Positions 2,305 to 21,600 of a stretch of 64,000 bases of DNA are shown here, one piece after another (position 1 is the first letter of the stretch; every line of letters starts with the position of its first letter). The translations under genes were made by a program, and so were the position numbers. The stretch is from NCBI RefSeq assembly GCF_009914755.1, contig NC_060925.1; one strand, 5' to 3'. The stretch comes from the human T2T-CHM13v2.0 reference genome, Homo sapiens. Under the pieces are notes generated by a model. The model saw only the letters and a program-made list of their open reading frames with translations. It searched no databases and had not been told where the DNA came from.

Positions 2305-2511
2305 CAGACTAATGTTTATCTCTGACCCAAAGGGAAAAAAATACTTCCCAAGCCAAGTAGATCTGACCTGAAAACACCACCATCTGGCCAAGAAACAGAA
2401 CTTTTGGGATGATTGGATCCAAGAAATTGTTGTGTGGATTATCCAGCCTTCTTCTCCCTGGCTGCCACTCTTAGGACTAATCACTGATAGGAGGAAATGC
2501 TGCTAACACAT

Positions 2512-2916
2512 TGATATAGTTTGGATATTTTTTTCCCTGCCCAAATTTCATGTTGAAATGTAATTCCCAATGTTGGAGGTGGGGGCCGATAGGAGGTGTG
2601 TGGGTCACGGGGGTGGATCCCTCATGGATTGGTGCTGTTCTTATGATAGTGAGTTCTCATGAGATCTGCTTGATTAAAAGTGTGTGGTACCTCCCCCAAC
2701 TCTCTCTATTGCTCCTGCTTTTACCGTGCGACGTGCCTGCTCCACACTTCACCTTCTGCCCAAGCAAAAGCTTCCTGAGGCCTCCCCAGAAGCCAAGCAG
2801 ATGCTGGCACCATGCTTGTATGGCCTGCAGAACCATGAGCTAATTAAAACTCTTTTCTTTATAAATTATCCAGTCTCAGGTATTTCTTTATAGCAACATA
2901 AGGAGGGCCTGATACA
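2512..2916 (+). mobile_element. MaLR solo LTR, MSTA/MSTB-like
   Basis: Starts tgatatagtttggat, contains cccaaatttcatgttgaaatgtaat, ends agtctcaggtatttctttatagca...taca. Confidence 0.85.
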
Positions 2917-2931
2917 CAAGTACACACAGGG

Positions 2932-2990: not shown

Positions 2991-5129
2991 GAGCAGCAGC
3001 AACATTGCTGGCAGACACAACAGTCCATGGGGAAAGCAAGCAAACTTCCAGCCATGGGTGTGGGAGCATGCATGCACATGTACAAGTGCAAACAGGGCCT
3101 GCTTCTGCAGAAGGAGACATTAGTAGTCGAAGCTCATGCAGTGACAAAGGGGCAGCTGCTTACGCTTTAGTCCCCTCTGTGACCCCTGTGCATGCAAAGC
3201 AGTCACCGACAGTGGCAGAGAGGGAAGTAGGAAGCACAGAGTGGTCGGGGTGGGGGTGGGCTGCCCCTGCTCATGGGCACAGAATGCAGCTTTGCTAACA
3301 GATTAGGTGGGGCTGGTGGAAATGGAAAAGCTGCTTAAAATGATTACTTATAGAGAGAATCCAAGGAGTTTTGTTGCTTGTGACCACAGATAATCAGGGG
3401 CTGCCTCCAGCACCAGTCCAACAAGCTTAGAGATGAAAGGACCCCTGTTCAGGTTCTAACCTGAGAGAAATGTCAGAGAAGAATTAGGAAGTGCTTTAAC
3501 ACAAAGCCCAGGATGAAAAATCTGGCAGCTCTCCAACTGTCTCAACATGCAGCATAATAGCGAAACAAAGCCACTCCGCGGCTACATTCATCCAGCCATG
3601 AGGCAGAAGGACTGGGAAAACTGGATTTGGCATGCAAGCCCTTCCCTGGGTTTTCTTCTAGCCCAGCTCACAGTTTGAGGTTTGCAAAGGCATCTGCCTC
3701 CCTGGGCAAGAAGTTTGTCTATACAGAGCAGATACCGGGTTCCTCTTTTCCATAAATATTTCTGCAAAATCCATTCATCTTCCTGAAATCTCTAATTATG
3801 AGTACACTTTGACTTTATTTCTCAGTGCACCTTTCTTTCCCTTAGCCCGATTCTTTCCCCCAGATCCCCACTTTCCTAGGGCAAAAGAAAGCGGCTTCCA
3901 CTCACAGCAAATTTTCTGAGTCCTCCCCACAGTGAAGTGAAAACCAAAGAGAGAACATTATCAGAGAAAAGCAGCACTATTCATACATCCTTAACTTTAC
4001 ATAATAATTTCATAATTGCTTTTTATGAAATCAAGTTTAATCACATTTCTGCTGCAAAAATGCTTGAAATCGTGACTTTACGAAAGGAGAGGTTGCCAGC
4101 GTACTGCATGGCACGCTGCTAGCTATGGAACCCCTCATGGTGTACTTTTGTTTGTTAAGATTTCCAATATTTTAAACTCCATTTCCTAACTCTACAGGTG
4201 CTCTCCTCTTTTTCATATATGATCCTTCCGCCTACTGCCATCTGCCATAGGATTTGTCCCATAGCCTGGAGAAACCCTCCCCCTGCTTACAGTCTTTGGA
4301 ACCCAGCCTCATATCTTGGTTCATCCAGATGGTTACAGAGATCTTCTGACAGAGTTAGGATGCAGTATCACTTTACCAATAGGGGGTGTCCAGTGTATAA
4401 TGTGCTCCATCCTGAGGAATGCAGGGTTTTAGATGCTATAACACAAACAAATGTCCTCCTTTAAAAATTCATACTTTGTCAACCAGAAGTTATTTTCATA
4501 TCTGGTTTAAGCATTTGCAAGAAGTGTGCCAGGAAATACAGCAGAATACAGAAGCTGTCTGCAAATAGATCTCCAAGTGATAAGGCACAATCTTCAGTAT
4601 GCTGCCTGTTGCAAGAGGTTTTTTAAAAATTAAATCTATCATGGAAAATACACTGGCCTTTGCTACTATAGGCAGCTCAGGGACAGTCAGATGGATGTAA
4701 AAGCCTGGGAAGTGAAAAGTTTGAGGAGCCACTGGGACTCTATAACATTGCCTGGTACTGGGAATTAGGATGGAAGGGATAGTGAACTCACTGGTGGCCC
4801 CCTGGGAATATTGCTTCCCAGTCCATGCTGATCCACTTGTTCTTGGGGTCCCTAGACACTTCTAGAAAAGGCTAATCCTGAAGGTTGGCCTACCCTGAAA
4901 GTCTGAGACGATTCCCTTCTGGTGTCTTCAAGCAGCCTTCTCTTAGGTAAAACAAGGTCAGGAAGGAGCTAGAAACAAATTTGGGGGAGAGGGAAGCTGG
5001 ATAGTGATTTCTCTCAGAAGGCTCTCTTCCTAGGTTCTTACTGATTAGCAATTCAGATTCACTGTTCTCATATCAGCCCATCCTGGCAAAGGCACCTTCC
5101 TGATTGAGTATCAGCCATTTAATCAATCA

Positions 5130-5380
5130 TCTTGCTTTTGTGCTGCACCTCTTCCAATTGGTGACTCTATTTCTCTGATCCTAGGAGTGCAGTCCTGGCC
5201 AATGGGCCCTTTGTAGCCCCGGGGGAGGCTGTCATCCCAGTGATGAATCTGGGGGCTTCAGCATGCCCTGTCTATCTCATGTGTAATTCCATTAAAGCAG
5301 CAGGCCATTGGCTACCACCTATGGGCATCTGGGCCCTATGGAGCCACCATAGGACTTGACGAATGATGGCATTTGAATCA
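5130..5380. repeat. Left arm of ~250-bp inverted repeat (partner 5899-6149)
   Basis: Hand alignment to the reverse complement of 5899-6149: about 194/252 identical, outer 28 bp perfect. Confidence 0.92.
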
Positions 5381-5898
5381 ACCATCTCTGTGCCCTGTCC
5401 ATAATAAGGGACATAGGAGTACACAGAAGGGACTGGGTTTCTCTTCTAGTCAGGTAAATTCCTACCCCTCTATCAAGATCCAGCTCAAGAGTTACTTCCT
5501 CAAAGAGTTTCCTAACTATTCCTATGGCCAGAAAAGGCCTTAGATTCATGGTTATCATATTCCCACTCTTCCTTTAAGGCTTCTTCCCAGCCCAGCTTTG
5601 GCCATATTCTAAGCCACTCCCTGACTCTTCAGGTTGTGCCCAGGTGCAAATCTCCAGTCAAGCTGGCCACTCAACTGAGAGCTGAAGGTCATTCTTCTGG
5701 CCTCTCATGATGAACAGAAGCAAACTACAGCTCTGAATATTCCTGTCACAGACCATCACCAGACTTTTATGCTACCTCAGTGGTACCATAGCAGAGCCAC
5801 ATGCCAAATAGCCACTTGTCAGGAGGATCATTCTGCTCCATTGTTTAATTATGCAAACTCATTTGCATCTCCTTCCTCTGTCTCTGAACAAACAGCAA

Positions 5899-6149
5899 TC
5901 ATGCAAATACCATCAGCTATCAAGCCCTGTGGGGGCTCCATAAAGCCTGGATACCCTTAGGCAGTGGCCAGAGGCCTGCTGCTCTAATGGAATTACTGAA
6001 GAGCTACACAGGGCATGCTGCAGTCTCCAAAACCAATCCTGGGCTGACAGCCTCCTCCAGCGGATACTGAGGACCCATCAGCTAGGGAAGCTCTACTAGG
6101 ACAGAGAAATGAGGTCACTATTTGGAAGAGGTGCAGCACAAAAGCAAGA
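5899..6149. repeat. Right arm of ~250-bp inverted repeat (partner 5130-5380)
   Basis: For example ttggaagaggtgcagcacaaaagcaaga (6122-6149) is the exact reverse complement of 5130-5157. Confidence 0.92.
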
Positions 6150-7243
6150 GCATGGTCTTGAGACTCAAGAAGACCACACTCCCCACAGCTTCTTGCCCAT
6201 GCTCCTCACCTGAGAGGGGCCCTACCTGCTCTAGTCACAAGTCCACAGATGGTACCTTTTTGAGAGTTTAGAGACATTGTTTGGTGACCTGGAAGTGGAG
6301 GTCAAAGCAGGCATTTTAGTTTCAGCCCAGAGATTGGAGTGCTTGCTCTGGACAGGACAAAGGCCCCCAAAGGCAGAACTGAGTGGCAAGTGTGGAGAGT
6401 GCACCAGCAGTAGGTGCTGGAATTAGACTCTCTCTCATCGCAGGACAGGAAAGGAGAGTAGCTGAAGCCAAGGTTTCTCCCAGGCAGCAAGACTTGCAGC
6501 CAGAGACAGCTTTGTGACCTGGAACCAGTCTGTGTATGCCACTACTGGATGCCCCAGCCTGCTCCCTTGGTCAGCTGGGGGACAGTGGCCTACCAGCTGA
6601 GGAGCAAGAGAGAGGTGGAACCCCCTCCCCTGGAGATCTAACCTCAAGCACAGTCTACCCTTAAAGAAGGGAGAATCACAGCCCATCAAAGTCCCCACTG
6701 AGTCAAAGAAAATGTGAGTGTGGTGCCAGCTGCTAAAGGGAGCACCACCAAAGCCTGGAAATGGACCTGGAGAGGGGATAATATATCACCTTCCACCAAC
6801 CTCCTCAGTGCACTATTGTGGACTCATCAGTGGCTCTTTCTGTTGGGGCTCAGGGAGCATGGGCTGAAAGAAACCACTTCTCAGACTTCTCCAGTGAATC
6901 CATCCCCAGTGAAGGCAAACGCACACTGGGAGGTGTTGCTTTTCATGCTTCTCCCTTGCCTCTGTCCCTGCCGCTAACTGCCGGCTCTTACTCTTAAGCC
7001 ACTTACTGGACTGCAGCCTGAATTACATCACCAAACAAAAATTACGTTGCTACAATAAGCAATGTGTGAGAAGCCATAGCACAAAACTATGTGCAAACAT
7101 GGAACTCATACAGAGCCTTGGTGCCCTGAAAGCTCCCAGAAATGAAGCAGTTGCTTATGCACAATATATACCACAGTCATACCCCAAGGGGAAAAAAGAA
7201 TTAAAAAATCAAGAAGCCCTATCCAAACCTATCCAAATGATAG

Positions 7244-7289
7244 ACACACACACACACACACACACACACATATTTTATATATATATATA
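7244..7289. repeat. Compound (AC)n/(TA)n microsatellite inside the L1
   Basis: Read directly. Confidence 0.9.
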
Positions 7290-7945
7290 AAGAAGTGCTG
7301 GCTCTCTCAGGTGAGAGGGAACCAGTGCAAGAAGCACTGCAATAAAAAATCCAGAGTGTTATGTTACCTCCAAGAGACCCCACTAGCTCCCAAGCAATGG
7401 ATCTGAGCCAGAATGAAATGTCTGGAATGACAAACATAGAATTCAGAATATGGATGGCAAACACCAATACCCAAAAACATCACAAGCAAGTTGAATTCCA
7501 ATACAAAGAAGCCAGGAAAACAATCCAAGATTTGAAAAACAATATGGCTATATTAAGAAAAAATGAAAGCAAGACTCTGGAATTGAAAAATTCACGGCAG
7601 GAATTTCAAAATATAGTAGGAAGCCTTAACAACAGACTAGACCAAGCAGAAGAAAGTATTTCAGAACTCTAAGATAGGTCCTTTGAATTAACCCAAATTT
7701 GTTTGTTTGAATCAACAAAAATAAAGAAAAAAGAATTTTAAAAAATGAACTAAGCCTTCAAGAAATACGGGATGACATAATGTAACCAAATACATGACTT
7801 ATTAGCATTCTCAAGAGAGAAGAGATAGTAAGCAACTTGGAAAATATATTTGAGGATATAATTCAGGAAAATTTCCCCAATCTTGCTAGAGAGGTCAACA
7901 GGCAGATATAAGAAATCTAGAGAATTCCTGTGAGATACTATACAA

Positions 7946-8260
7946 CAGGGGCTCCCAACCCCTGGAGCCATGACTGGTACCAGTCCAAGGCCTGTTAAAA
8001 ACGGGTCCATACAGCAGGAGATGAGCGGCAGGTGAGCAAGCACTGCCACCTGAGCTCCGCCTCCTATCAGATCAGCAGTGGCATTGGATTCTCATAGGAG
8101 TCTGAACCCTATTGTGAGCTGTGCACGCGAGGAATCTAGGTTGCACACTCCTTATGAGATGAAACAGTTTCATCCTGAAACCATCCCTGCCACCCCAGTT
8201 CATGGAAAAATTGTCTTCCATAAAACTGGTCCCTGGTACCAAAAAGGTTGAGGACTGCTG
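7946..8260 (+). mobile_element. MER1B-like hAT-Charlie DNA transposon nested in L1 ORF1
   Basis: Ends caggggctcccaacc / ggttgaggactgctg; perfect 8-bp TSD ctatacaa at 7938-7945 and 8261-8268. Confidence 0.92.
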
Positions 8261-8659
8261 CTATACAAGACAACCATCTCCAAGGCACATAGTCATCAGA
8301 CTATCCAAGGTCAATGTGAAAGAAAAAAAATCTTAAAGGCAGCTAGATAAAAAGGATCATATTACCTATAAAGGGTAATACTATAATATGACCCTTTCAT
8401 AGTATTAGTGTGAAAACCATCAGACTAAGAACAGACTTCTCAGCAGAAACCTTGCCAGCCAGAAGAGATTGGGGACCATTTTTGGCATTCTTGAAAAGAT
8501 AAGCCAGCCAAGAATTTCATTTCCTTCCAAAGAAAGCTTCATAAACAAAGGAGAAATAAAGTGTTTCCCAGACAAGCAATTGCTAAGGGAATTCATCACT
8601 ACCAGACCAGTCCTACAAAAAATGCTTAAAGGAGTCCTAAACATGGAAACAAACGAATG

Positions 8660-9029
8660 TGTATTTGTCTGTTTTCATGCTTCTGATAAAGACATAACTG
8701 AGACTGGGCAATTTACAAAAGAAAAAGTTTTAATGGACTTACAGTTCCATATGGGGAGGCCTCACGATCATGGCAAAAGCCAAGGAGACACAAGTCGCAT
8801 CTTACGTGGATGGTAGCAGGCAAAGAGAGAGGGCTTGTGCAGGGAGATTCCTCTTTATAAAACCATCAGATCTCATGAGACTTATTCACTATCATGAGAA
8901 CAGCAAGGGAAAGACCTGCCCCTATGATTCAATTATTGAATATGATTCAATTACCTCCCTCCAGGTCCCTCCCAAAACACATGGGAATTCACGATGAGAT
9001 TTGGGTGAGAACACAGTCAAATCATATCA
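8660..9029 (-). mobile_element. THE1 (A/B-like) solo LTR nested in the L1, sense to KCNH1
   Basis: THE1 motifs catcagatctcatgagacttattcactatcatgagaac; perfect 5-bp TSD gaatg at 8655-8659 and 9030-9034. Confidence 0.92.
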
Positions 9030-9063
9030 GAATGATACTTGCTACCACAAAAGTACATGTAAA

Positions 9064-9428
<365 letters not shown>

Positions 9429-12400
9429 TCAACTAGTTGTTGGCAACTAGCCAACAACACTACAACAGGAACAAAATCTCACAAAGCAACATTAACCTTG
9501 AGTGTAAATGGTCTAAATGCTCCAATTAAAATACAGAGAGTGGCAAATTGGATTAAAAAAACAAGACTCATCCTTTTGCTATCTTCAAGAGACCCATCTC
9601 ACATGTAATGACACCCACAGACTCAATGTAAAGAGATGGCAAAAGATCTACTGCACAAATGGAAAACATAAGACAGCAGGGGGTCGCTAGTCTTATATCA
9701 CATAAAATAGGCTTCAAACCAACAAAAGTAAAAAAGGACAAAGAATAACATTACATAATGATAAAGGTGTTCAAATCAACAAGAACACTTAACTATCCCA
9801 AATATATATACAATTAAAATTGGAACATTCAGATTTATAAGACTATTATTTCTAGACCTGAGAAATGACTTTGATAGTCACGAAATAATAGTGGGGGACT
9901 TCAATATCCCACTGACAGCAATAGACAGGTAGTCAATGCAGAAAAATAACAAAGAAATTCTGGACTTAAATTTGGTACTCGACCAATCGGACTTAATAGA
10001 CATCTACAGAATACTCTACCCAACAACCACACAGTATACATTCTTCTCATCTGCACATGGAACGTACTCTAAGACTGACCACGTGCTTGGTCATACAGCA
10101 AGTCTCAATAAATTAAAAAAAATCAAAATCATACAGTGGAATAAAAATAGAAATCAATTCCAAATGAACTCTTAAAACTACCCAAATACATGGAAACTAA
10201 ACAACTTGCTCCTGAATGACTTTTAGGTAAAAAACAAAATTAAGGCAGAAATTAAAAAAAAATTCTTCGAAACAAATGAAAATAGAGACATGACATACTA
10301 AAATCTCTGGGATGCATCAAAAACAGTGTTAAGAGGAAAGTTTATAGTTCTAAATGCCTATATCAAGAAGATAGATAGATCTGAAATTAACAACCTAAGA
10401 TCAGAGCTAAAGGAACTAGAAAACAAGAACAAGCTAAACCCAAAGCTAGCAGAAGAAAAGAAATAGCAAAAATCAGGGCAGAACTAAATGAAACTGAGAC
10501 CAAAAACCATAGGGAGGATCAACAAAACAGAAGGTTGGTTCTTCGAAAAGGATAAACAAGTTCGATAGACCACTAGCTAGATGAACAAAGGAGAGAGAAG
10601 CTCCAAATAAGCACAACCAGAAATGACAAAGACAATATCACAACCAATCCCACAGAAATATAAAAGATCCTCAGAGACTATTATGAACATCTCTATGTAG
10701 ACAAACTAGAAAATCTAGAAGAAATTGATAAATCTCTGGAAACACATAACCTCTCAGGATTGAATCAGGAAGAAAAAGAAATCCTGAAAAAACCAATAGT
10801 GAGTAATGGAATTGAACCAGTAATAAAAAACCTGCCAACCAACAAAAGCCCTGGACCAGATGGATTCACAGCCAAATTCGACCAGATATACAAAGAAAAG
10901 CTGGTTCCAATCCTACTGAAACTATTTTTAAAAATCAAGGAGGAGGGACTCCTCCTTAACTCATTCTACTAAATCAGCATCATCATGATACCAAAATCTG
11001 GCAAAGACACAACAAAAAAAGAAAACTACAGATCAATATCTCTGATGAACATAGATGCAAAAATCTTCAGCAAAATACTAGGAAACTAAATCCAGCAGCA
11101 CATCAAAAAGTTAATTCACTGTGAGCAAGTGGGCTTTATTCCTGGGATGCAAGGATGGTTCAACATGTGCAAATCAAAAAATGTAATTCACCATATAAAC
11201 AGAATGAAAAATAAAAACCATGTAATCATCTCAATAGATGCAGAAAAAGTAGTCAATACAATCCAACATCTCTTTATAATGAAAACCCTCAAAAAACTGG
11301 GAATTGAAGGAACACATCTCAAAATAATAAAAGCCATCTATGACAGATCCACAGCCAACATCATACTGAATGGACAAAAGGCAGAAACATTCGCCCTAAG
11401 AACTAGAACAAAACAAAGATGTTCACTCTCATCACTCCTATTCAACATAGTAATGGAAGTTCTAATCAGAGTAATCAGACAAGAGAAAGAAATAAAGGGC
11501 ATCCAAACAGGAAAGGAAGAAGTCAAACCATCTCTTTGCTGATGATATTATTCTATATCTAAAAAACCCTAAAGACCAAAAGTCTCCTAAATTTGATGAC
11601 TTCAGGAAAGTCTCAGGATACAAAATCAACATACAAAAATCAGTAGCATTTCTATACACCAATAATATGCAAACTGAGAGCCAAATCAAGAATGCAATTT
11701 CATTTGCAGTAGCCACACACACAAAAATAAAATACCTAGGAATACATCTAACCAAGCAAGTAAAAGACCTCTCCTGGAAGAACTATTAAGCACTATTTAA
11801 ATAAATCATAGACAACACAAACAAACAGAAAAGCATTCCATACTTATGAATTGGAAGAATCAGCATCATTAAAATGTGCATACTTCCCAAAGCAATGTAC
11901 AGATTCAACACTATTCCTATCAAGTTACCAATGTCATTTTTTTCACAGAATTAGAAAAAAACTATTCTAAAATTCATATGGAACCAAAAAACAGCGCAAA
12001 TAACCAAGGCAATCCTACACAAAAAGAGTAAAGCTGGAGGCAATCACATTATCCAACTTCAAAGTACATTACGAGGTTACAGTAACAAAAACAGCATGGT
12101 ACTGGTACAAAAACAGATGAATACACCAATGGAACAGAATAGAAAGTTTGAAATGAAGCCACACACCTAAAACTAACTGGTCTTTGACAAAGCCAACAAA
12201 AATAAACAATAGGGAAAGAATACCCTATTCAATAAATGATACGAGAAAATTGGCTAACTATATGCAGAAGAATGAAACTGGACCCCTACCTCTCACCATA
12301 TACAGAAATTAACACAAGATGAATTAAAGACTTAAATGTAATACCTCAAACTATAAAAATCCTAGAAGAAAACCTAGAAAACACCCTCCTAGATATTGAC

Positions 12401-13875
12401 CTAGGCAAATAATTTATGCTAAGTCCTCAAAAGCAAATGCAACAAAAATTAAAATTGACAATTGGGGTCTAATTAAATGAAAGAGCTTCTGCACAGCAAA
12501 AGAAACTATGAACAGAGTAAACAGACAATCTACTGGATGGGAGAAAATATTTACAAACCATGCATCTGATAAAGAACTAATATCCAGAATCTATGAGGAA
12601 CTTAAATCAACAAGCAAAAACCAAATAACTTCATTAAAAAGTGGGCAAACGACATGAACAGATGCTTCTCAAAGGAAGACATCCTAATGGCCAAGAAACA
12701 TGAAAAAATGTTCAACATCACTATCATCAAAGAAATGCAAACCAAAACCACAAAGAAATACCATCTCACACCAGTCAGTATGGTTATTGTTAAAAAGTCA
12801 CAAAATAACAGATGGTAAGGTTGGGAAGAAAAGGGAATGCTTACATACTGTTGGTGGGAATGCCAATTAGTTTAGCCCCTGTGGAAAACAGCTTGGAGAT
12901 TCTCAAATAGCTAAAAATAGAATTACCATTCGACCTAGAAATCCCATTACTGGTTATAAACCCAAAGGAAAATAAATTGTTCTACCAAAAAAGACACCTG
13001 CACTCATATGTTTATCACAGCACTATTCACAATAGCAAAGACATGGAATCAACCCAGGTGCCCATCAACAGTAGACTGGATAAACTATGGTACATATACA
13101 CTATGGAATACTACAGAGCCATTAAAAAGAACAAAATCATGTCCTTTGCAGCAACATAAATGCAGCTGAAGGCCATTATCCTAAGTGAACTAATGCACAA
13201 ACAGAAAACTATGTACCACATGTTCTCACTTACAAGTAGTAGCTCAACATTGAGTACACATGGACACAAAGATGGGAACAATAAACACTTGGGATTCCAA
13301 AACTGGGGGTGGGGGTACAGAAGGGTCCAAAACTGGGCAGGGGGTAATGGTGGCGGGTGGAAGGGTTGAAAAACTATCTACTACTGGGTAGTATGTTCAC
13401 TACTTGGGTAGTGGGATCACTAGAAACCCAAACCTCAGCATCATGTAATATACCCATGTAACAAACCTGCACACATACCCCCAGAATCTAAAATTTAATA
13501 AAACAAACAACCACAAAAAGAGTATGGGCTTGGTGATTGCCAGGCTTGAGCTACAATTCTAACTCCAATTAGCTTAATGGATCAGAAGCAAATTATTTAA
13601 CCTATCTTGGCCTCAGCACCTAAGTGAGATACATGTAAATGCGTTAACTCATACTTGGCAGATGAGACAATAAATTGGGATGGTTATTATATTTTATGCT
13701 GGCACCAGGGGTATCTGCAGAGGCTGAGAGACCTCTACAATCAGGGCCTGGGGGAGAGAAAAAGAAGGGAAAAGGGGCTATGAAATATATAGGAAAAGCT
13801 TCAGAGGGACAAAGAAGGAAAGATGTCTCTGCCGATACCATCTTTTAGCCAAGGCTTTAAGAATATACACCAATA

Positions 13876-14281
<406 letters not shown>

Positions 14282-14339
14282 TTATTGAACATTTACTTTG
14301 TACCAAGCTCTAAAAAAGCTGATCAAGTCAGAGAAGTGT

Positions 14340-14610
14340 GGCCAGGTAGGGTAGTTCCCGCCTGTAATCCCAGCACTTTGGGAGGCTGAGGCAGGCGGAT
14401 CACCTGAGGTCAGGAGTTTGAGACCGGCCTGGCCAACATGGAGAAACCCCGTCTCTACTAAAAATACAAAATTAGCTGGGCATAGTGGCACATGCCTGTA
14501 ATTCCAGCTACTCAGAAGGCTGAGGTGGGAGAATAACTTGAAACCAGGAGGCAGAGGTTGCGGTAAGCCAAGATCATACCATTGCACTCCAGCCTGGGCA
14601 ACAAGAGTGA
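14340..14610 (+). mobile_element. AluSp/Sq-like, lacking 3' end and poly-A
   Basis: atggagaaacccc and caacaagag diagnostics; ends abruptly before the tail. Confidence 0.88.
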
Positions 14611-17600
14611 GTGGGGGTGGGGAGTTAACTGGAAGTATAATGAGAGCTACAAAGAGGTGATTGCTGCTAATTGGATTAAAAGACAAGGGGCTTCATCTAG
14701 ACTAGAGAAATTAAAGAGAAGATATATGGAGTCAGGGTCCCATTATGAATTCAAAATTTCAATCTAGAAATCTAAGTTAAGCACAGGCAGGGTAAAGACC
14801 ATTAAGTGACATTAGTAAAAAGTAAATTGCCAACAACAAAGTTTGCAGAGAGATAAACCAAAACCGCGTGGACCTCTGACATACATTATACCAGATATGG
14901 TCTGCACGGACATTTGGTCTGGAATAGATTCTTTATGTGAGCTCATATGCAGGCATTCAAAGTCCCCTTGGAAATAGGGGAGAACTAACATTTCTTTTTA
15001 TTAATCTAACATCTTATAAAGTAGTTATTGTTATCAGAGGAGAGGCAGCCTGGGTTCAAATCCTGACTCTGCTTACCAAAAGCAAAGGCTAGAATAAAAA
15101 CCTCCATGACTTACTGTCAAAATTTGTAAGGACATGCTCAAAACCACAGAGCACATTTTTAAGAGTAGAAGGAACAATAAATAGGAAAAAGGAAGTCCAA
15201 AAAACTTGGCAGATGGGTTCGAAATGTGAAATTTGGCTAGGCCAAAGAAAGAATGAGAAAGTAACTTGCAAGGAGGGACTTTGAAGCTAGTTAGAAAACA
15301 TCCTTTGACAGCCTTCTAGTATTAGCACATGTGAAATGCACTTTGGAAACATGACTGGCTGCTCACTGGAAAATGAGTGGGCCACTGGGCATTTGTAAGA
15401 GGTGGGAGGGGAGCTGAGTTGAGGAAGATGTTTAGAAATTAGCGAGACCCTGCCAGTAATCTCTGTTTGGGATTTTACTGAGGACCAGGTGATAGTGATT
15501 CCCTGTGCTAGAGTATATTTTGGCTTCTTGATGTTTCAGAGGCAAGACCTGTTCGCTCCACAAGTCAGTGATCATTTGAGCTGGAAGAGATACTAAAGAG
15601 CATCTAGACCCTGCTTCCTAAATATGCTCTGTAAAACACTAGCTCTAGTGGATTTTTACAGGTATTTCATAATAGATAATACTTACAGATATCATTCAAA
15701 ATTTTAGGGAGCACATGAATGAGAAATCTTGGGTTAAACATCTAAGACATCAAGAAGCCAACTTGCTTGCTTGAGGATGAACTTCTGATCTAGGATCCAT
15801 TAGCACTACCCTTATTATGCCTCAACTACATACACCTAAGAAAATATTATTAAGGATGCTACTCTCCTCCAAAAGACTGCACTAGCCTTATACTCTTCTA
15901 AGCTAGGCCAGATCTTTTCTAATTTGTGGTAAACACTGTATGTAACAGTACATCAAGTAACTTGATGACTATTAAAAGATAAGTTACAACTTTCCTCCTC
16001 CTTCCTCTCTTCCACATCTGACTCTACCATTCCCTCCATTCATTCTGTTATAGGAGGAATCAGATCCATTTTGAATCCAACAGAGCCATTCTTCACCAAA
16101 CCTCACTGATGAACCACCTGGATCTCTAGGGCTACTTGAGGGGCCCAGGCTCAAATTTTAGAATTTTCTGTTTAGGAGATTTCTAGATGTTAAAATTCAG
16201 TCCATCACTTCTTTTTAAAAACTTTTAGCACCTGATGGGATCTAAGTCCCAGAAAAGCTAACTAATACATTTGATTGATTTTATTGTCATCATCCTTATC
16301 ATTATCATCGTCTTCTTTATCATAATTATAGCCATATAAACATTGAAAATTTGCCATGTCAAAGCATGCTTCTAAGGCCTCTATTTCATACCTGAATAAA
16401 ATAGGGCCTAGAGAGGTTAGGTAACTGGCCTGAAGTCACTAAGTAGGGCCAGGATTTGAACTCAAATACTCTGACTGCAGGATCCACATTTTAAACCACC
16501 AGTCTAGTACCTCCATATGATTATTCTACCAGCCAAACTATTATGGCTCCTATTCTTCTTTGCTCTGCTGCCCCCATTGCTATGAATAATGGAAGAGAAA
16601 TAACACAGCTACATACTTACCACACGTGAGGCAACATGCCTGGCACTTTCTCACTCTTTCCCATCACTACCATTTGGGGTAGGCGATGTAGATCCACGGA
16701 AGACCACAAGGTATACTTGTTCAATGCCCACCCATCCTGACCCCCTGCCCCAGCTAGCAAATGGCAGAGCCTGGATGTGAAGATCTAGCTTTAAAGCCCG
16801 TGTTCATTCCAGAACTTTATTACTTCCTTAAAAATAGCCAGACATAGCCTGACTACAGTTTAAGCTAATTCATACATAATGAAGCATGGAGCACTTTTAT
16901 TATCTTCCACCTCCAGCATCATCATGGGGTTCTGCTAAATGTTCTCGGGGTACTGGGGAACACCTGAGGACCCATGAAAGACTGCACAGGTCCCTAACAT
17001 CACTCACTGATCCTCTTGAGGAAAACAGAACTTGATTTTGATTTATAGTTTGTTGTTCTAAAAGAATTATGGTCATGTCACTCACATCATCTCTCCCCCT
17101 CCCCCGACTCCTAATTCCAACACCATGATTTTATTATCTTTTTGGCTTGACAGACTAATAGATGATTTTAATTTCACAGAAGCCCACATAGGAGGGATGA
17201 CAAGGAAAATATGGGCTATGCAGATATCATTTTTAAAACTTAGGCTATGATGACTCAGGGGGGAAGTGGATGACATTTTTAAGTACCTAGCTTTATGGTT
17301 TATCTTTCCATCTTATCAACCTTCCACAATAATTTATTCAGGGAGAAAATTTAAAAGCTTTCCAATGCCACTTATGAGCAGAGCTTTCTCCAAGCATTCA
17401 ATGCTTTCATCTTCTCTTCTCCAGAATAAAATGCTCTTTGGTTAAAGTGGGCTAGAAATGTACATATGGTATTCAAGACAGTTCACTATGGCAACCTCAG
17501 TTTTAGAAAACAGGCATTAGGAGGGCTCAGCTTTGAGAACATCAGTAACTATAGTCCCAGCTCCCTCCCAAACTCACTAAGTTGGGGCTTTAATCAAACA

Positions 17601-18110
17601 AAAAAAATTCATCCTGGAACAAATTAATATAAACAAACACTGCACAAAACAAACTCTATACACAACAATATTGGCTTTAAAAATAAAGCCCTACACACAG
17701 AATGAGAACCGCCCTCCCAATTACCTACGTGCCAATTATCCCATGCACTGACTGCTGTTAATTACCTAATTGCTTGTCTGCAGTACATCATTTAATTGTG
17801 GTACATTGCTTCTACTGTCCTAATGATCAGCAGGAGAACGTAATTCCCTAGGACCTGGGGAGTGAAACCTTATCTCAGGTTGAAAGGAAAGTAGAGCCCA
17901 AGTGAAACATCGACTAAAGAAATGTCTGGTTATTAACCAAGGGCAACAAAGTGTGAATTCAGAACCTCTAAGACTGGAGGTGGAAGTAGGGGATGGGCAG
18001 TGGGGAGGAGAAAGGGAAAAATATGTATTGAGTGGTTCCTGCAGGTAATGTGTCACTTTTTCTTTTTGTTTGTTTTACTGTATGTAAACTTCTCAATAAA
18101 CCCAATTAGG

Positions 18111-18480
18111 GCAGCCATAAAAAAGAATGAGTTCATGTCCTTTGCAGAGACATGGATGAAGCTGGAAACCATCATCCTCAGCAAACTAACACAGGAACAG
18201 AAAACCAAACACCACATGTTCTCATTCATAAGTGGGAATTGAACAATGAGAACACATGGACACAGGGAGGGGAACATCACACACTGGGGCCTGTTTGGGG
18301 TGTGGGGGGGTCAAGGGGAGAGAGAGCATTTGGACAAAAACCTAATGCACATGGGACTTAAAACCTAGATGATGGGTTGATAGGTGCAGCAAACCACAAT
18401 GGCACATGTATACCTATGTAACAAACCTGTACGTTCTGCACATGTATCCCAGAACTTAAAATAAATAAACAAAATGCCAA
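18111..18480 (+). mobile_element. 5'-truncated L1PA (about PA7-8) 3' end
   Basis: L1 ORF2 C-terminus and 3'UTR; TSD aaacc(c/t)aattagg at 18098-18110 and 18481-18493. Confidence 0.92.
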
Positions 18481-18494
18481 AAACCTAATTAGGA

Positions 18495-18630
18495 AGGACT
18501 TGTATCAGCCCCTTTTCACAAACAAGGAAACTGAGGCTCTGAATGGTTAAGTAATTTGCCCAAAGGCACATAGCTGGTCAGCAGTCAAATCAGTATTCAA
18601 ACATAGTCCTTAGACTCAAAGCATTGGCCT
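18495..18630 (-). mobile_element. MIR fragment
   Basis: ggaaactgaggctc...ggttaagtaatttgcccaaaggcacatagct core. Confidence 0.75.
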
Positions 18631-21600
18631 TTCTAGTGAGTTACTAATAGCATGGCCGGGTTAACCCGCTGCCTAACGAAAGTGAAATGTGTCATGCCTC
18701 CCACACCCATCACATCCAGCTACTTGCTGTGTGCCTGTCACTACGAGGGGGAAATTTGTCACATCTCCCAACCTGGGGTATTACTGTGGTTTTACCGTAC
18801 ATGTTTCTGAGTGTATTGGCGGTGGCAAAGGCCACTGGAGAAAGATACTTAGGAGACAACCCAAGCTACTCCTGAAAAGTTAACAGACTAGAAGAATGCA
18901 GAAGCCAAAGAATGCCAATATGGGAACAGCTGAGAGCCACACTTCACTGAGGCTACCACAGAATGTGACACTCCTTAGCCAGAAGAGCACGTGCCAGGTT
19001 TGGAATCTGCCACTTATTAACCGGGCAACCTTGGAAAAGGGGTTTTCTTCCTCACAGGGTCCTAGTTTATTCCATTGAGAAATGGGAATGATACAGTAAT
19101 GTCATGAGGCTGTTCCGAAGATGTAATAAGCTGACATACACGTACTGATACTGTGACGTAGCTTGTACAATATCTGGAGTTGGTAATAATTTACTATTTA
19201 TAGTCTGCAAAGCTCTGATTACAGACACAAGATGATTCTAGGCTTTGAGGAAAAAGCGCATAGACCTTGCACCCTAGAGAGCCAAGGGTTTGATGAGGAA
19301 GGCTCTACTTCCCCTTCTTTTCATGAATAGCCACAAGCCACCTCCCTCAGAAGAAACAATAGCGCTGTGCTTTTCTTTTGTGCCTCCCTCTAGACTTCCT
19401 GTTAACTGACCTAAGATCTCAAAATAGCCTGATTTTTCCCTCCAAGAATGGAACTGGCCAAAACAGTGGGCAAATGCTGACCTCTTCACTGTCAGGAGCT
19501 GAAGAGGCAGCAAGGCCAGCAATGGATTCCACTTCCCAGAGCGACTGATCCCTCCTTTGCTGCAAGAGGTGCAGAGAACCTGCGGATAACACCTACCCCA
19601 CAGAACATTGCGCAGGGCAATAACCCTGCATGAACAAAGGCAGAGGAACTGCCTTCTTTTTACTTTACAAAAGGCACAGGATAATAAAGAATAGGGTATC
19701 AATCACGTGGACAGAACAAAATAACAATAACATACAAATGAATTGAGCACTCGCTATGTAGTAGTAGGCTTCATGTGAGCTTTGCAAATATTATCTTATT
19801 TAATGCTTGCAACTATCCTACAAGTTAGAAATTTTCATCATCCGCATTTTACAGAAAAGGAAGCTTTTATAGCTCCTCCAGAATTATAGAAGCAATAAGT
19901 GGCAGAAGCAGGACCCAGACCAAAGTCTCACCTGGCTCAGACCTCACAAGCAAGAAAAACTAAAGGCCAAAATGCTGGATTTGCCTCCAGGTTCTGCCTC
20001 TTTCATCCTTGTCTGTGCCCTCATGTGGCTTTGGAGGAAATGGAGGAAGGCAACAGTTTCTTCCTGAGTTGGGTTCCAAGAGCAGAGCTGAGAGCTAGGT
20101 GATGTTCATACCCTTGGATTTAGGGAAAAAGGGATGTGGCTTAGAATACAGAGGCTAGAGTAGAACAGGAAACTGTGATCAGGAAGACTTTGGCCAAGGT
20201 GTCACTTCTGGCTCCAATTCTTTCATCCCAACCCAGCTCTGTGACCTTTCTATAAAATGTGAAATGAGGGTGTTAGGGAAGTAGAGAAGAGATTGAACGG
20301 TTACCAAGTCATCTTCTAGCTCAGAGTCTTTGCTGCACATTGGAGAAGATCAACAAGATCAAGAAACTCCCCAGATAGATGTCAAAGGCACTGTGTTGTC
20401 AAGAATCTTAGCAAATAAAACACTTAATTTTGCCAAGATAGAAACAGCTACAACAATACACTTTACTTTACCAGGAAAAAAAAATAGCTAGGAGAATAAT
20501 TCATGCATGTAATGTTCTTGTCTTCCATGCCCTACGTAACTACGAATTAATTCTCAGAAGGACACAATGAGAGACTACAATGGCAATAATAAAATGACAA
20601 GCCTCTTTTTTTTTTTTTCCAAAAAAGAATGGCTACCTCTTTACACAAAGGCTTTCACTAAACTTCCTCTGGATCCATACCAGACTCATATATAGTCACT
20701 TAGAGTTAGAAGAAAATTTGAAGGTCAGCTAGTTTGACTCTCCAACAGTCGCCTAAGTCCCTTCCACAATGTTTCTGAATATGGGTACCTAGGAGATGCC
20801 TAAGTACCCTCATAATAACAAATTTGATACACTCAAAGCAGCCTATTTCATTCTTTGGGGAGCTCTGATTTTTTTCAAAAGACTTTTTATACTGTGCCAA
20901 AATCTGTCTATAATTTTGGTTCTTCCTCTGTACCCTGTGGCTATAAAAAATCCTCCACAACAGCCCTTCAAAAATGTAGCCCCTGCGTCTTCTCTTCTGC
21001 AGAGCTATCACTCTACTTACAGAAAAAATCTGACCACTGAGGTGTCATTGTTTTTGTTGTCATTCTTGTTTTTTTTTAAAGACAGATTTACTTGAGCCAC
21101 AATTATTCCAAGAAGATTACTCCTCCAAATAACCCAAACTGCATATTTTTTCAACCTATATTATCAGCAACACTGAAAGCTGATTATAATCAACTTGCTT
21201 TCATAGAAAGAAGGAATACATCAAAAAATAGCTTATAAGAGAATCCACTTGGCTAAATGTATCACCAGCAAGCATCCCATGTTCCCAACCAACAGATCAA
21301 CCAGGAAGAACATTGGATGCACATTTCTCCACCACTGCCCACCCTCCACTAGAATTTAAATGGCCAGGTTTCAAACCACAGAACTATAAAAACCATCTTG
21401 CCACAATCTTGCATTTTATTATGTGGAAGTTGAGGCCCAGAGTTGAGGCCCATCTCTTTCTCCTTGCCATCCTCAAATATTTATTAATTCTAGGCACCCC
21501 ACACTTGTTTATGCACTGAGGATACTAAGGCACCAAGCCCTTGCCTTCTCAGGTCTCTGTGCAGGGACCCACAAGATAGTCCAAGGGATTTAAAACAGGT

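What the first reader, a model, noticed from the sequence alone, without database searches (positions are those of the whole stretch)
5130..6149. ~250-bp inverted repeat of apparently unique sequence in KCNH1 intron 10
Seen: 5130-5380 aligns to the reverse complement of 5899-6149 at about 194/252 columns (~77%, hand count) around a ~518-bp spacer. The outer 28 bp are perfect (tcttgcttttgtgctgcacctcttccaa) and an inner block matches 23/24 (gtaattccatta(a/g)agcagcaggcc). The small ORFs ending ...GGSIGPRCP (-) and ...GGSIKPGYP (+) mirror each other for this reason. I do not recognise the arms as Alu, L1, LTR or MITE. Inference: the pre-mRNA could fold into a long imperfect hairpin, with some mismatches pairing as G-U, and so act as a non-Alu ADAR substrate or small-RNA source. 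Its DNA could also support micro-inversion of the spacer.
Basis: partly seen in the sequence, partly recalled or inferred. Interest (0 to 1): 0.8.

Follow-up and report, generated by a model that had tools for sequence, protein, structure and literature searches.

The report
Old inverted duplication in KCNH1 intron
A real 250-base inverted repeat of otherwise unique DNA lies in a KCNH1 intron; it looks like an old local copying accident that is slowly decaying, and no function is in evidence.

Summary
5130-5380 and the reverse complement of 5899-6149 match at 194 of 252 columns around a 518-bp spacer, with E 7e-49 in the window and 4e-45 in the genome.

Arms, spacer and both flanks have no other copy in the T2T genome. 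The two best-kept blocks occur nowhere else at up to 3 mismatches. A nearby 315-bp hAT-like MITE gave 5298 candidates in the same search. No target-site duplication flanks the unit. It is therefore not a transposon or a TE pair.

It is most likely a local inverted duplication made by template switching or fold-back repair. A 5'-truncated L1 (6161-13517) abuts it, and the L1's 15-bp target-site duplication (13/15) overlaps the last 4 nt of the right arm. The arm therefore existed when the L1 landed. Arm divergence equals L1 divergence (transversions 0.092 in both).

The sense RNA is predicted to fold into a long hairpin (z -16). G-U-compatible mismatches show no strand bias (17 vs 16), and there is no Rfam match.

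One oddity remains: the outer 28 bp are perfect (P 0.02 anywhere, 0.0004 at that end). Editing and conservation could not be tested.

The parts
5130..5380 (.). Left arm of the inverted repeat (251 bp)
   Evidence: Aligns to the reverse complement of 5899-6149 at 194/252 columns. Its only other genome match is the right arm.
5381..5898 (.). Single-copy spacer (518 bp), the loop of the predicted hairpin
   Evidence: The genome search finds only itself, 1 candidate. It has no inverted similarity to either flank.
5899..6149 (.). Right arm of the inverted repeat (251 bp)
   Evidence: Reciprocal match to the left arm at 77%, E 4e-45. No other genome match.
5130..5157 (.). Outer 28 bp of the left arm, perfectly complementary to 6122-6149
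   Evidence: At up to 3 mismatches the pattern hits only these two places in the genome, and the reversed control hits 0. A run of 28 or more has P 0.0235 anywhere and 0.0004 at the outer end in 100,000 permutations.
6122..6149 (.). Outer 28 bp of the right arm (partner of 5130-5157)
5283..5306 (.). Inner 24-bp block that matches 23/24 with 5973-5996
   Evidence: The pattern search finds only these two places at up to 3 mismatches.
6146..6160 (+). 5' copy of the L1 target-site duplication (AAGAGCATGGTCTTG); its first 4 nt are the last 4 nt of the right arm
   Evidence: 13/15 identical to 13518-13532, which lies directly after the L1 A-rich tail. 7 of 2000 shuffles reach this score.
6161..13517 (+). 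5'-truncated old L1 with later insertions inside it, abutting the right arm
   Evidence: Pfam Tnp_22_dsRBD, E 3.8e-20 (8409-8813), and RVT_1, E 4.3e-15 (11090-11539). It is collinear with paralogous L1 copies up to about 13503. Paralogs extend 0.8-1.05 kb further 5'. The A-rich tail is at 13490-13517.
13518..13532 (+). 3' copy of the L1 target-site duplication (AAGAGTATGGGCTTG), followed by the unique pre-insertion flank
   Evidence: The flank 13518-13868 is unique in the genome.

Best explanation
The 1020-bp unit is the relic of one local inverted duplication of about 250 bp of ordinary, unique intronic DNA. The copy sits in reverse orientation 518 bp from its source.

The architecture is: copy, single-copy spacer, inverted copy, with sharp outer ends, no target-site duplication and no other copy in the genome. 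This is what a replication template switch, or fold-back (snap-back) priming at a resected break, leaves behind. That step is inferred.

The event is old. K2P between the arms is 0.27. At a recalled neutral rate of about 2.2e-9 per site per year that is very roughly 60 million years. This is the same age as the L1 that later landed about 10 bp outside the right arm, whose target-site duplication includes the arm's last bases.

Since then the arms have decayed like neutral DNA. As a by-product, the KCNH1 pre-mRNA carries a long imperfect hairpin whose base is a perfect 28-bp duplex. ADARs may edit it incidentally, but nothing here indicates a selected function. The perfect 28 bp at the stem base may be chance, or a later short template-switch or gene-conversion patch that re-copied one arm from the other.
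For: Shown:
1. The repeat is real and highly significant.
2. The arms, the spacer, 1 kb of left flank and 351 bp of pre-L1 right flank each find only themselves in the genome, apart from each arm finding the other arm. First-look candidate counts were 2, 2, 1, 1 and 1.
3. The 28-mer and the 24-mer blocks occur only in the two arms at up to 3 mismatches, and the reversed controls give 0.
4. The search is sensitive enough. A 315-bp hAT-like MITE 1.8 kb away gave 5298 candidates, of which 40 were scored at 74-84% identity. The L1 next door gave copies at 68-75%.
5. The bases abutting the two ends (...AATCAATCA | unit | GCATGGTCT...) share no direct repeat of any length (read).
6. The L1 target-site duplication matches 13/15, a score 7 of 2000 shuffles reach, and it overlaps the end of the right arm. 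The arm therefore predates or coincides with the L1.
7. Ages agree. The arms show transitions 0.132 and transversions 0.092. This L1 against 12 paralogs shows 0.156 and 0.092. K2P is 0.271 for the arms against a mean pairwise 0.308 for the L1.
8. The substitution pattern is ordinary (33 transitions, 23 transversions, 2 one-base indels). G-U-compatible mismatches are 17 on the sense strand and 16 on the antisense strand.

From print:
- Fold-back inverted duplications in humans carry a single-copy spacer, 766 bp to 70 kb in 21 sequenced junctions, with short inverted microhomology (PMC3907307, abstract and passages).
- Short-range template switches create inverted repeats and can turn near-perfect ones into perfect ones (PMC7954356, passages; PMC8794818, search listing only).
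Against: - No outgroup genome was available. No ancestral state lacking one arm has been seen, and which arm is the copy is unknown.
- Microhomology at the inner junction cannot be read after 23% divergence.
- The template switches documented in great apes act over tens to hundreds of nucleotides, and the documented fold-back duplications are far larger. A 250-bp copy with a 518-bp loop lies between the two scales.
- The perfect outer 28 bp (P 0.0004 at that place, 0.0235 anywhere) does not fit uniform neutral decay and needs an extra event or luck.
- The genome search works through a word-based first look. A very old family (pairwise identity below about 60-65%) or a family of very few copies could escape it.
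Confidence: 0.74

Rival explanations
1. The unit is the relic of a non-autonomous cut-and-paste or foldback-type DNA transposon with about 250-bp terminal inverted repeats. Its family would be too old or too small to be found here.
For: Its shape fits: long inverted termini, sharp outer ends that are the best-kept part (28/28), and an unrelated 518-bp core.
Against: - No target-site duplication of any length abuts the ends (read).
- No other copy of arm, spacer or terminal 28-mer exists in 3.1 Gb, while a hAT-like MITE family whose copies show similar pairwise identity (74-84%) gives 5298 candidates.
- If the arms were identical at insertion, the family was active at the age of this L1. Its copies would then be about 75% identical to the arms and easy to find.
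- Termini are not under selection after insertion, so their perfection is not explained either.
Confidence: 0.08
2. The inverted copy (right arm) was made in the same event as the L1 insertion. A polymerase would have switched template to nearby DNA while the 5' junction of the L1 was being resolved.
For: - The first L1 nick, at the left edge of the target-site duplication (6145/6146 to 6149/6150), falls at the outer end of the right arm.
- Arm divergence and L1 divergence cannot be told apart (transversions 0.092 against 0.092).
Against: - The target-site duplication lies between the arm and the L1. In standard target-primed reverse transcription (established model, recalled), everything upstream of the 5' duplication is pre-existing target.
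- The arm end reads AAAAGCAAGA. On the bottom strand this is a T-rich run followed by a purine, which is an ordinary L1 endonuclease site (consensus recalled). That alone can explain the adjacency.
- TE junctions are dense enough that adjacency within 10 bp is not rare (rough reasoning, not computed).
Confidence: 0.08
3. The hairpin is a selected structure: a dsRNA in the KCNH1 pre-mRNA (an ADAR or Dicer substrate, or a splicing modulator) or a DNA hairpin. Its 28-bp perfect base would be kept by selection.
For: - The predicted sense-strand hairpin is very stable (z -16.4, 211/251 arm positions paired, longest helix 28 bp).
- The perfect 28 bp at the stem base is unexpected under uniform decay (P 0.0004 at that place).
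Against: - Overall arm divergence equals that of the adjacent L1, so decay is not slowed.
- There is no strand bias in G-U-compatible mismatches (17 vs 16).
- The plus strand folds almost as well (z -14.3).
- There is no Rfam match in the arms.
- RefSeq lists no functional element here (supplied table).
- The only literature search found nothing.
Confidence: 0.06
4. The arms are two independent insertions of one dispersed repeat in opposite orientation, like an inverted Alu pair.
For: By coordinates, the 6 other inverted pairs of 100 nt or more within 5 kb in this window (7 listed in all) coincide with stretches the supplied table marks as masked repeats.
Against: Neither arm has any third copy in the genome. 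Both arms also start and stop at the same homologous positions.
Confidence: 0.02

Closest known systems
Template-switch and fold-back inverted duplications (four-point template-switch model, PMC7954356; fold-back model with single-copy spacer, PMC3907307)
   Same: A reverse-complement copy of nearby unique sequence, a single-copy spacer between the copies, no target-site duplication and no dispersed copies. These events are also known to make hairpin-forming sequence and to perfect near-perfect inverted repeats.
   Different: Scale: the described short-range switches act over tens to hundreds of nucleotides, and the described fold-back duplications are very large (millions of bases in the table rows seen) with 766 bp-70 kb spacers. 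Here the copy is 250 bp and the spacer 518 bp. The event is tens of millions of years old, so junction microhomology and the ancestral state cannot be read here.
Inverted Alu pairs in introns (IRAlus), the main human ADAR substrates (recalled knowledge)
   Same: An intronic inverted repeat about 250-300 bp long, under 1 kb apart, predicted to form a long imperfect dsRNA in a brain-expressed pre-mRNA.
   Different: The arms are unique sequence, not a dispersed repeat. The arms are 77% complementary. Editing was not tested.
Non-autonomous TIR DNA transposons, such as the hAT-like MITE at 7946-8260 in this window
   Same: Inverted termini with sharp ends around an unrelated core.
   Different: The MITE has short inverted ends (read by eye), an 8-bp target-site duplication (CTATACAA, 7938-7945 / 8261-8268) and thousands of genomic candidates. 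The unit studied here has 250-bp arms, no duplication and no other copy.
Diverged inverted repeats studied for DNA fragility (yeast Alu-IR assays, PMC10164571)
   Same: Two inverted homeologous segments of about 250-320 bp.
   Different: At 77% identity and a 518-bp spacer it lies in the range found to be nearly inert in double-stranded DNA.

Membership tests
TIR DNA transposon / MITE / foldback element | Terminal inverted repeats with defined ends | tested here: met
   251-bp arms with sharp outer ends.
TIR DNA transposon / MITE / foldback element | Target-site duplication abutting both ends | tested here: not met
   The left flank ends ...AATCAATCA. The right flank, unchanged by the L1, starts GCATGGTCT... 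There is no shared direct repeat (read).
TIR DNA transposon / MITE / foldback element | Other copies of the family in the genome | tested here: not met
   Searches find only the two arms. The positive control with a 315-bp MITE gave 5298 candidates.
Inverted pair of dispersed repeats (IRAlu-like) | Each arm belongs to a dispersed repeat family | tested here: not met
Inverted pair of dispersed repeats (IRAlu-like) | A-to-I editing of the duplex in transcripts | not testable with these tools
   No RNA-seq or editing database was available. The literature search found nothing on this site.
Template-switch / fold-back inverted duplication | Reverse-complement copy of nearby single-copy sequence, with a single-copy spacer | tested here: met
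Template-switch / fold-back inverted duplication | Short inverted microhomology at the spacer / inverted-copy junction | tested here: inconclusive
   Pairing ends at 5380/5899 and the next bases (A/A) do not pair. After 23% divergence, 2-8 bp of microhomology cannot be told from the end of the arm.
Template-switch / fold-back inverted duplication | An ancestral or outgroup state with only one arm | not testable with these tools
   No other mammalian genome is held.
Known structured RNA / miRNA precursor (Rfam 15) | Match to a curated covariance model | tested here: not met
   There is no match in 5130-6149 at E<=1. The only hit in 4500-6800 is mir-500 at 22 bits against a gathering score of 78, at 6548-6621 inside the L1.

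The most novel reading that the evidence does not exclude
The hairpin is not just debris. The perfect 28-bp duplex at the stem base (P 0.0004 at that place) would be kept either by selection on an intronic dsRNA of a brain potassium-channel gene (a non-Alu ADAR or Dicer substrate) or by recurrent template-switch correction that maintains the hairpin. Alternatively, the inverted copy was written during resolution of the adjacent L1 insertion, which would be an undescribed by-product of retrotransposition.
Probability: 0.1. Interest if true: 0.5.

Novelty: new member of a known kind. Interest (0 to 1): 0.17.

Why it matters
It matters little as it stands. It is a clean, datable example of how a local inverted duplication of unique DNA creates a long hairpin-forming sequence in a gene, independent of Alu or other transposons. 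An abutting L1 serves as a time marker. It is a convenient non-Alu test site for incidental ADAR editing in brain, and a test of whether template switching can re-perfect the base of an old hairpin. Nothing suggests an effect on KCNH1.

Tried and rejected
- **Known TE or MITE:** rejected, because there are no other copies and no target-site duplication.
- **Longer arms cut off by the L1:** I tested whether the left outer flank pairs with the pre-L1 right flank. There is no match (at E<=1). My by-eye count was about 10/30 at zero offset, which is chance level.
- **Unit inserted into the neighbouring repeat:** 13 paralogous L1 copies fetched with up to about 3 kb of 5' flank show no similarity to window 3000-6144.
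- **5' transduction by the L1:** rejected, because the target-site duplication lies between the arm and the L1.
- **Rfam:** nothing in the unit.
- **Profile searches of the genome:** a DNA alignment and a sequence-only covariance model R1 were not accepted, so no profile-level search was done.
- **Pfam on raw six-frame translations of the neighbour:** It was replaced by open stretches.
- **First, blind scan for the L1 target-site duplication:** exact k-mers in 11800-20000 found nothing useful. It was found only after the L1 3' end was mapped.
- **Literature on KCNH1 editing:** 2 papers listed, neither on this topic by title and abstract opening.

Full report

Yes, to the base.

- Window 5130-5380 aligned to the reverse complement of 5899-6149 gives 252 columns: 194 matches, 56 mismatches (33 transitions, 23 transversions) and two single-base gaps.
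- The spacer is 5381-5898, 518 bp.
- The outer 28 bp are identical, and the block 5283-5306 / 5973-5996 matches 23/24.
- blastn gives E 6.8e-49 against the window and 4.0e-45 against the 3.1-Gb genome.
- Similarity ends abruptly at 5130 and 6149. No further inverted match to 4000-6158 exists in the 64-kb window at E<=1.
- Seven inverted pairs of 100 nt or more within 5 kb are listed in this window. By coordinates, this is the only one that does not coincide with a stretch the supplied table lists as masked repeat.

**2. Is it a repeat family?**

No, as far as these tools can see.

- Each arm finds only itself and the other arm in the T2T genome. The first look gave 2 candidates each time.
- The spacer finds only itself.
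- So do 1 kb of left flank and the 351 bp that formed the right flank before the L1 arrived.
- The terminal 28-mer and the 24-mer block occur only in the two arms at up to 3 mismatches. The reversed-pattern controls give 0.
- Sensitivity was controlled twice. The 315-bp hAT-like MITE at 7946-8260 gave 5298 first-look candidates, of which 40 were scored at 74-84% identity. A 6.3-kb query around the site gave 21,745 candidates, of which 40 were scored, with L1 copies at 68-75% identity.
- A family as old as the arm divergence implies would have copies about 75% identical to the arms, and would have been seen.
- What remains open is a family so old or so small that a word-based first look misses it. 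Profile searches were not accepted for this genome, and no Dfam or RepeatMasker is on hand.
- No target-site duplication abuts the unit. The left flank ends ...AATCAATCA and the right flank starts GCATGGTCT... (read).

**3. The surroundings give a time marker.**

- Ten bases beyond the right arm an old L1 begins on the + strand.
- Its ORF1 is shown by Pfam Tnp_22_dsRBD, E 3.8e-20, at 8409-8813. Its reverse transcriptase is shown by RVT_1, E 4.3e-15, at 11090-11539.
- It is collinear with paralogous copies from about 6159 to about 13503. It ends in an A-rich tail at 13490-13517.
- Paralogs run 0.8-1.05 kb further 5', through ~250-bp tandem units. This copy is therefore 5'-truncated, as L1 insertions usually are.
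- Directly after the tail comes AAGAGTATGGGCTTG (13518-13532). Directly before the L1 body comes AAGAGCATGGTCTTG (6146-6160). They match 13/15, and 7 of 2000 shuffles reach that score.
- This is the L1 target-site duplication, and its first four bases are the last four of the right arm.
- In standard target-primed reverse transcription (established model, recalled), everything upstream of the 5' duplication is pre-existing target. The right arm was therefore in place when the L1 landed.
- One caveat applies: the leading AAGA of the 3' copy could partly belong to the tail.

**4. Age.**

- K2P between the arms is 0.271.
- This L1 copy against 12 paralogs over about 1.4-1.7 kb shows transitions 0.156 and transversions 0.092. 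The arms show 0.132 (SE 0.021) and 0.092 (SE 0.018).
- Mean pairwise K2P among the 13 L1 copies is 0.308 on a star-like tree.
- The duplication and the L1 insertion are therefore of indistinguishable age.
- With a recalled neutral rate of about 2.2e-9 per site per year, this is roughly 60 million years. This is a rough figure.
- I did not name the L1 subfamily, because no repeat library was available.

**5. Does anything suggest selection on a structure?**

- The KCNH1-sense (minus-strand) RNA of 5130-6149 folds arm against arm. 211 of 251 arm positions pair, 15 of them as G-U, and the longest helix is 28 bp. MFE is -507.3 kcal/mol against -347.9 +/- 9.7 for 25 dinucleotide shuffles, z -16.4.
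- The plus strand does nearly as well (z -14.3). A DNA-level inverted repeat guarantees this.
- Mismatches that would be G-U number 17 on the sense strand and 16 on the antisense strand, so there is no strand preference.
- Divergence is no lower than that of the neighbouring L1.
- Rfam has no match in the unit.
- The one departure from uniform decay is the perfect outer 28 bp. A run of 28 or more arises in 2.35% of 100,000 permutations anywhere, and in 0.04% at the outer end.
- This may be chance after the fact, a later short template switch or conversion, or constraint. Short template switches are known to turn near-perfect inverted repeats into perfect ones (PMC7954356, passages).
- Only orthologs can tell these apart.

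**6. Mechanism.**

*Shown:* an inverted copy of nearby unique DNA, a single-copy spacer, no duplication of the target, and no other copies.

*Inferred:* there are two routes.

- A replication template switch.
- Fold-back priming. Here a 3' end at the distal end of the present spacer paired back about 520 nt upstream, copied about 250 nt of its own strand, and was then joined to the other side.

Human fold-back duplications show this layout. All 21 sequenced junctions carried a single-copy spacer of 766 bp to 70 kb, and 13 carried 2-8 bp of inverted microhomology (PMC3907307, abstract and passages). They are at a far larger scale, however. Here microhomology can no longer be read.

I considered a variant in which the copy was written while the L1 5' junction was being resolved. 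The nick site coincides with the arm end, and the ages are equal. The position of the target-site duplication argues against it. The arm end (AAAAGCAAGA) is itself an ordinary L1 endonuclease site (consensus recalled).

**7. Consequences today.**

- *DNA:* 77% identity and a 518-bp spacer place it where inverted repeats are nearly inert. In yeast, 75% homology lowered rearrangements about 1087-fold. Widening the spacer from 12 to 100 bp lowered IR-induced recombination 300-fold (PMC10164571, passages). Present-day micro-inversion is therefore unlikely.
- *RNA:* a 250-bp imperfect duplex with a 28-bp perfect base is a plausible incidental ADAR substrate in brain. This was not tested. No editing data were available, and the one literature search listed 2 papers not on this topic.

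**8. Verdict.**

The structure is real and correctly described, and it was rightly recognised as not Alu, L1, LTR or MITE. It is best read as an old local inverted duplication, decaying neutrally, and dated by an abutting L1. It is a new instance of a known kind, of low interest unless orthologs or editing data show that the stem base is being maintained.

**Limits.** No repeat library, no other mammalian genome, no expression or editing data and no profile search of the genome were available. Supplements of the cited papers were not consulted.

Noticed in passing
window 6161-13517 (+), with duplications at 6146-6160 and 13518-13532: An old, 5'-truncated L1 with a recognisable 15-bp target-site duplication (13/15). 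Its family's 5' UTR carries ~250-bp tandem units in the paralogous copies L007-L018.
   Followed up: yes
window 7946-8260, with duplications at 7938-7945 and 8261-8268: A 315-bp hAT-like MITE (ends CAGGGG...CTGCTG) with a perfect 8-bp target-site duplication CTATACAA, inserted into the L1 ORF1 region. The genome search gave 5298 candidates. The family name was not determined.
   Followed up: partly
window 8660-9057 and 9058-9370: The L1 is interrupted after ORF1 by what looks by eye like a MaLR-type LTR, followed by an Alu. The Alu-like part matches several places in the fetched loci at 73-90%. No names were checked against a library.
   Followed up: no
window 6156-6170: A small perfect palindrome, TCTTGAG-A-CTCAAGA, spans the junction between the target-site duplication and the first bases of the L1. 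It may be junction microhomology or chance.
   Followed up: no
window 2505-2920: A ~410-bp dispersed repeat with copies at about 80-82% identity elsewhere in the genome. The family was not identified.
   Followed up: no
window 6548-6621 (-): A weak Rfam mir-500 match (22 bits against a gathering score of 78, E 0.078) inside the L1 5' UTR. It is almost certainly chance.
   Followed up: no
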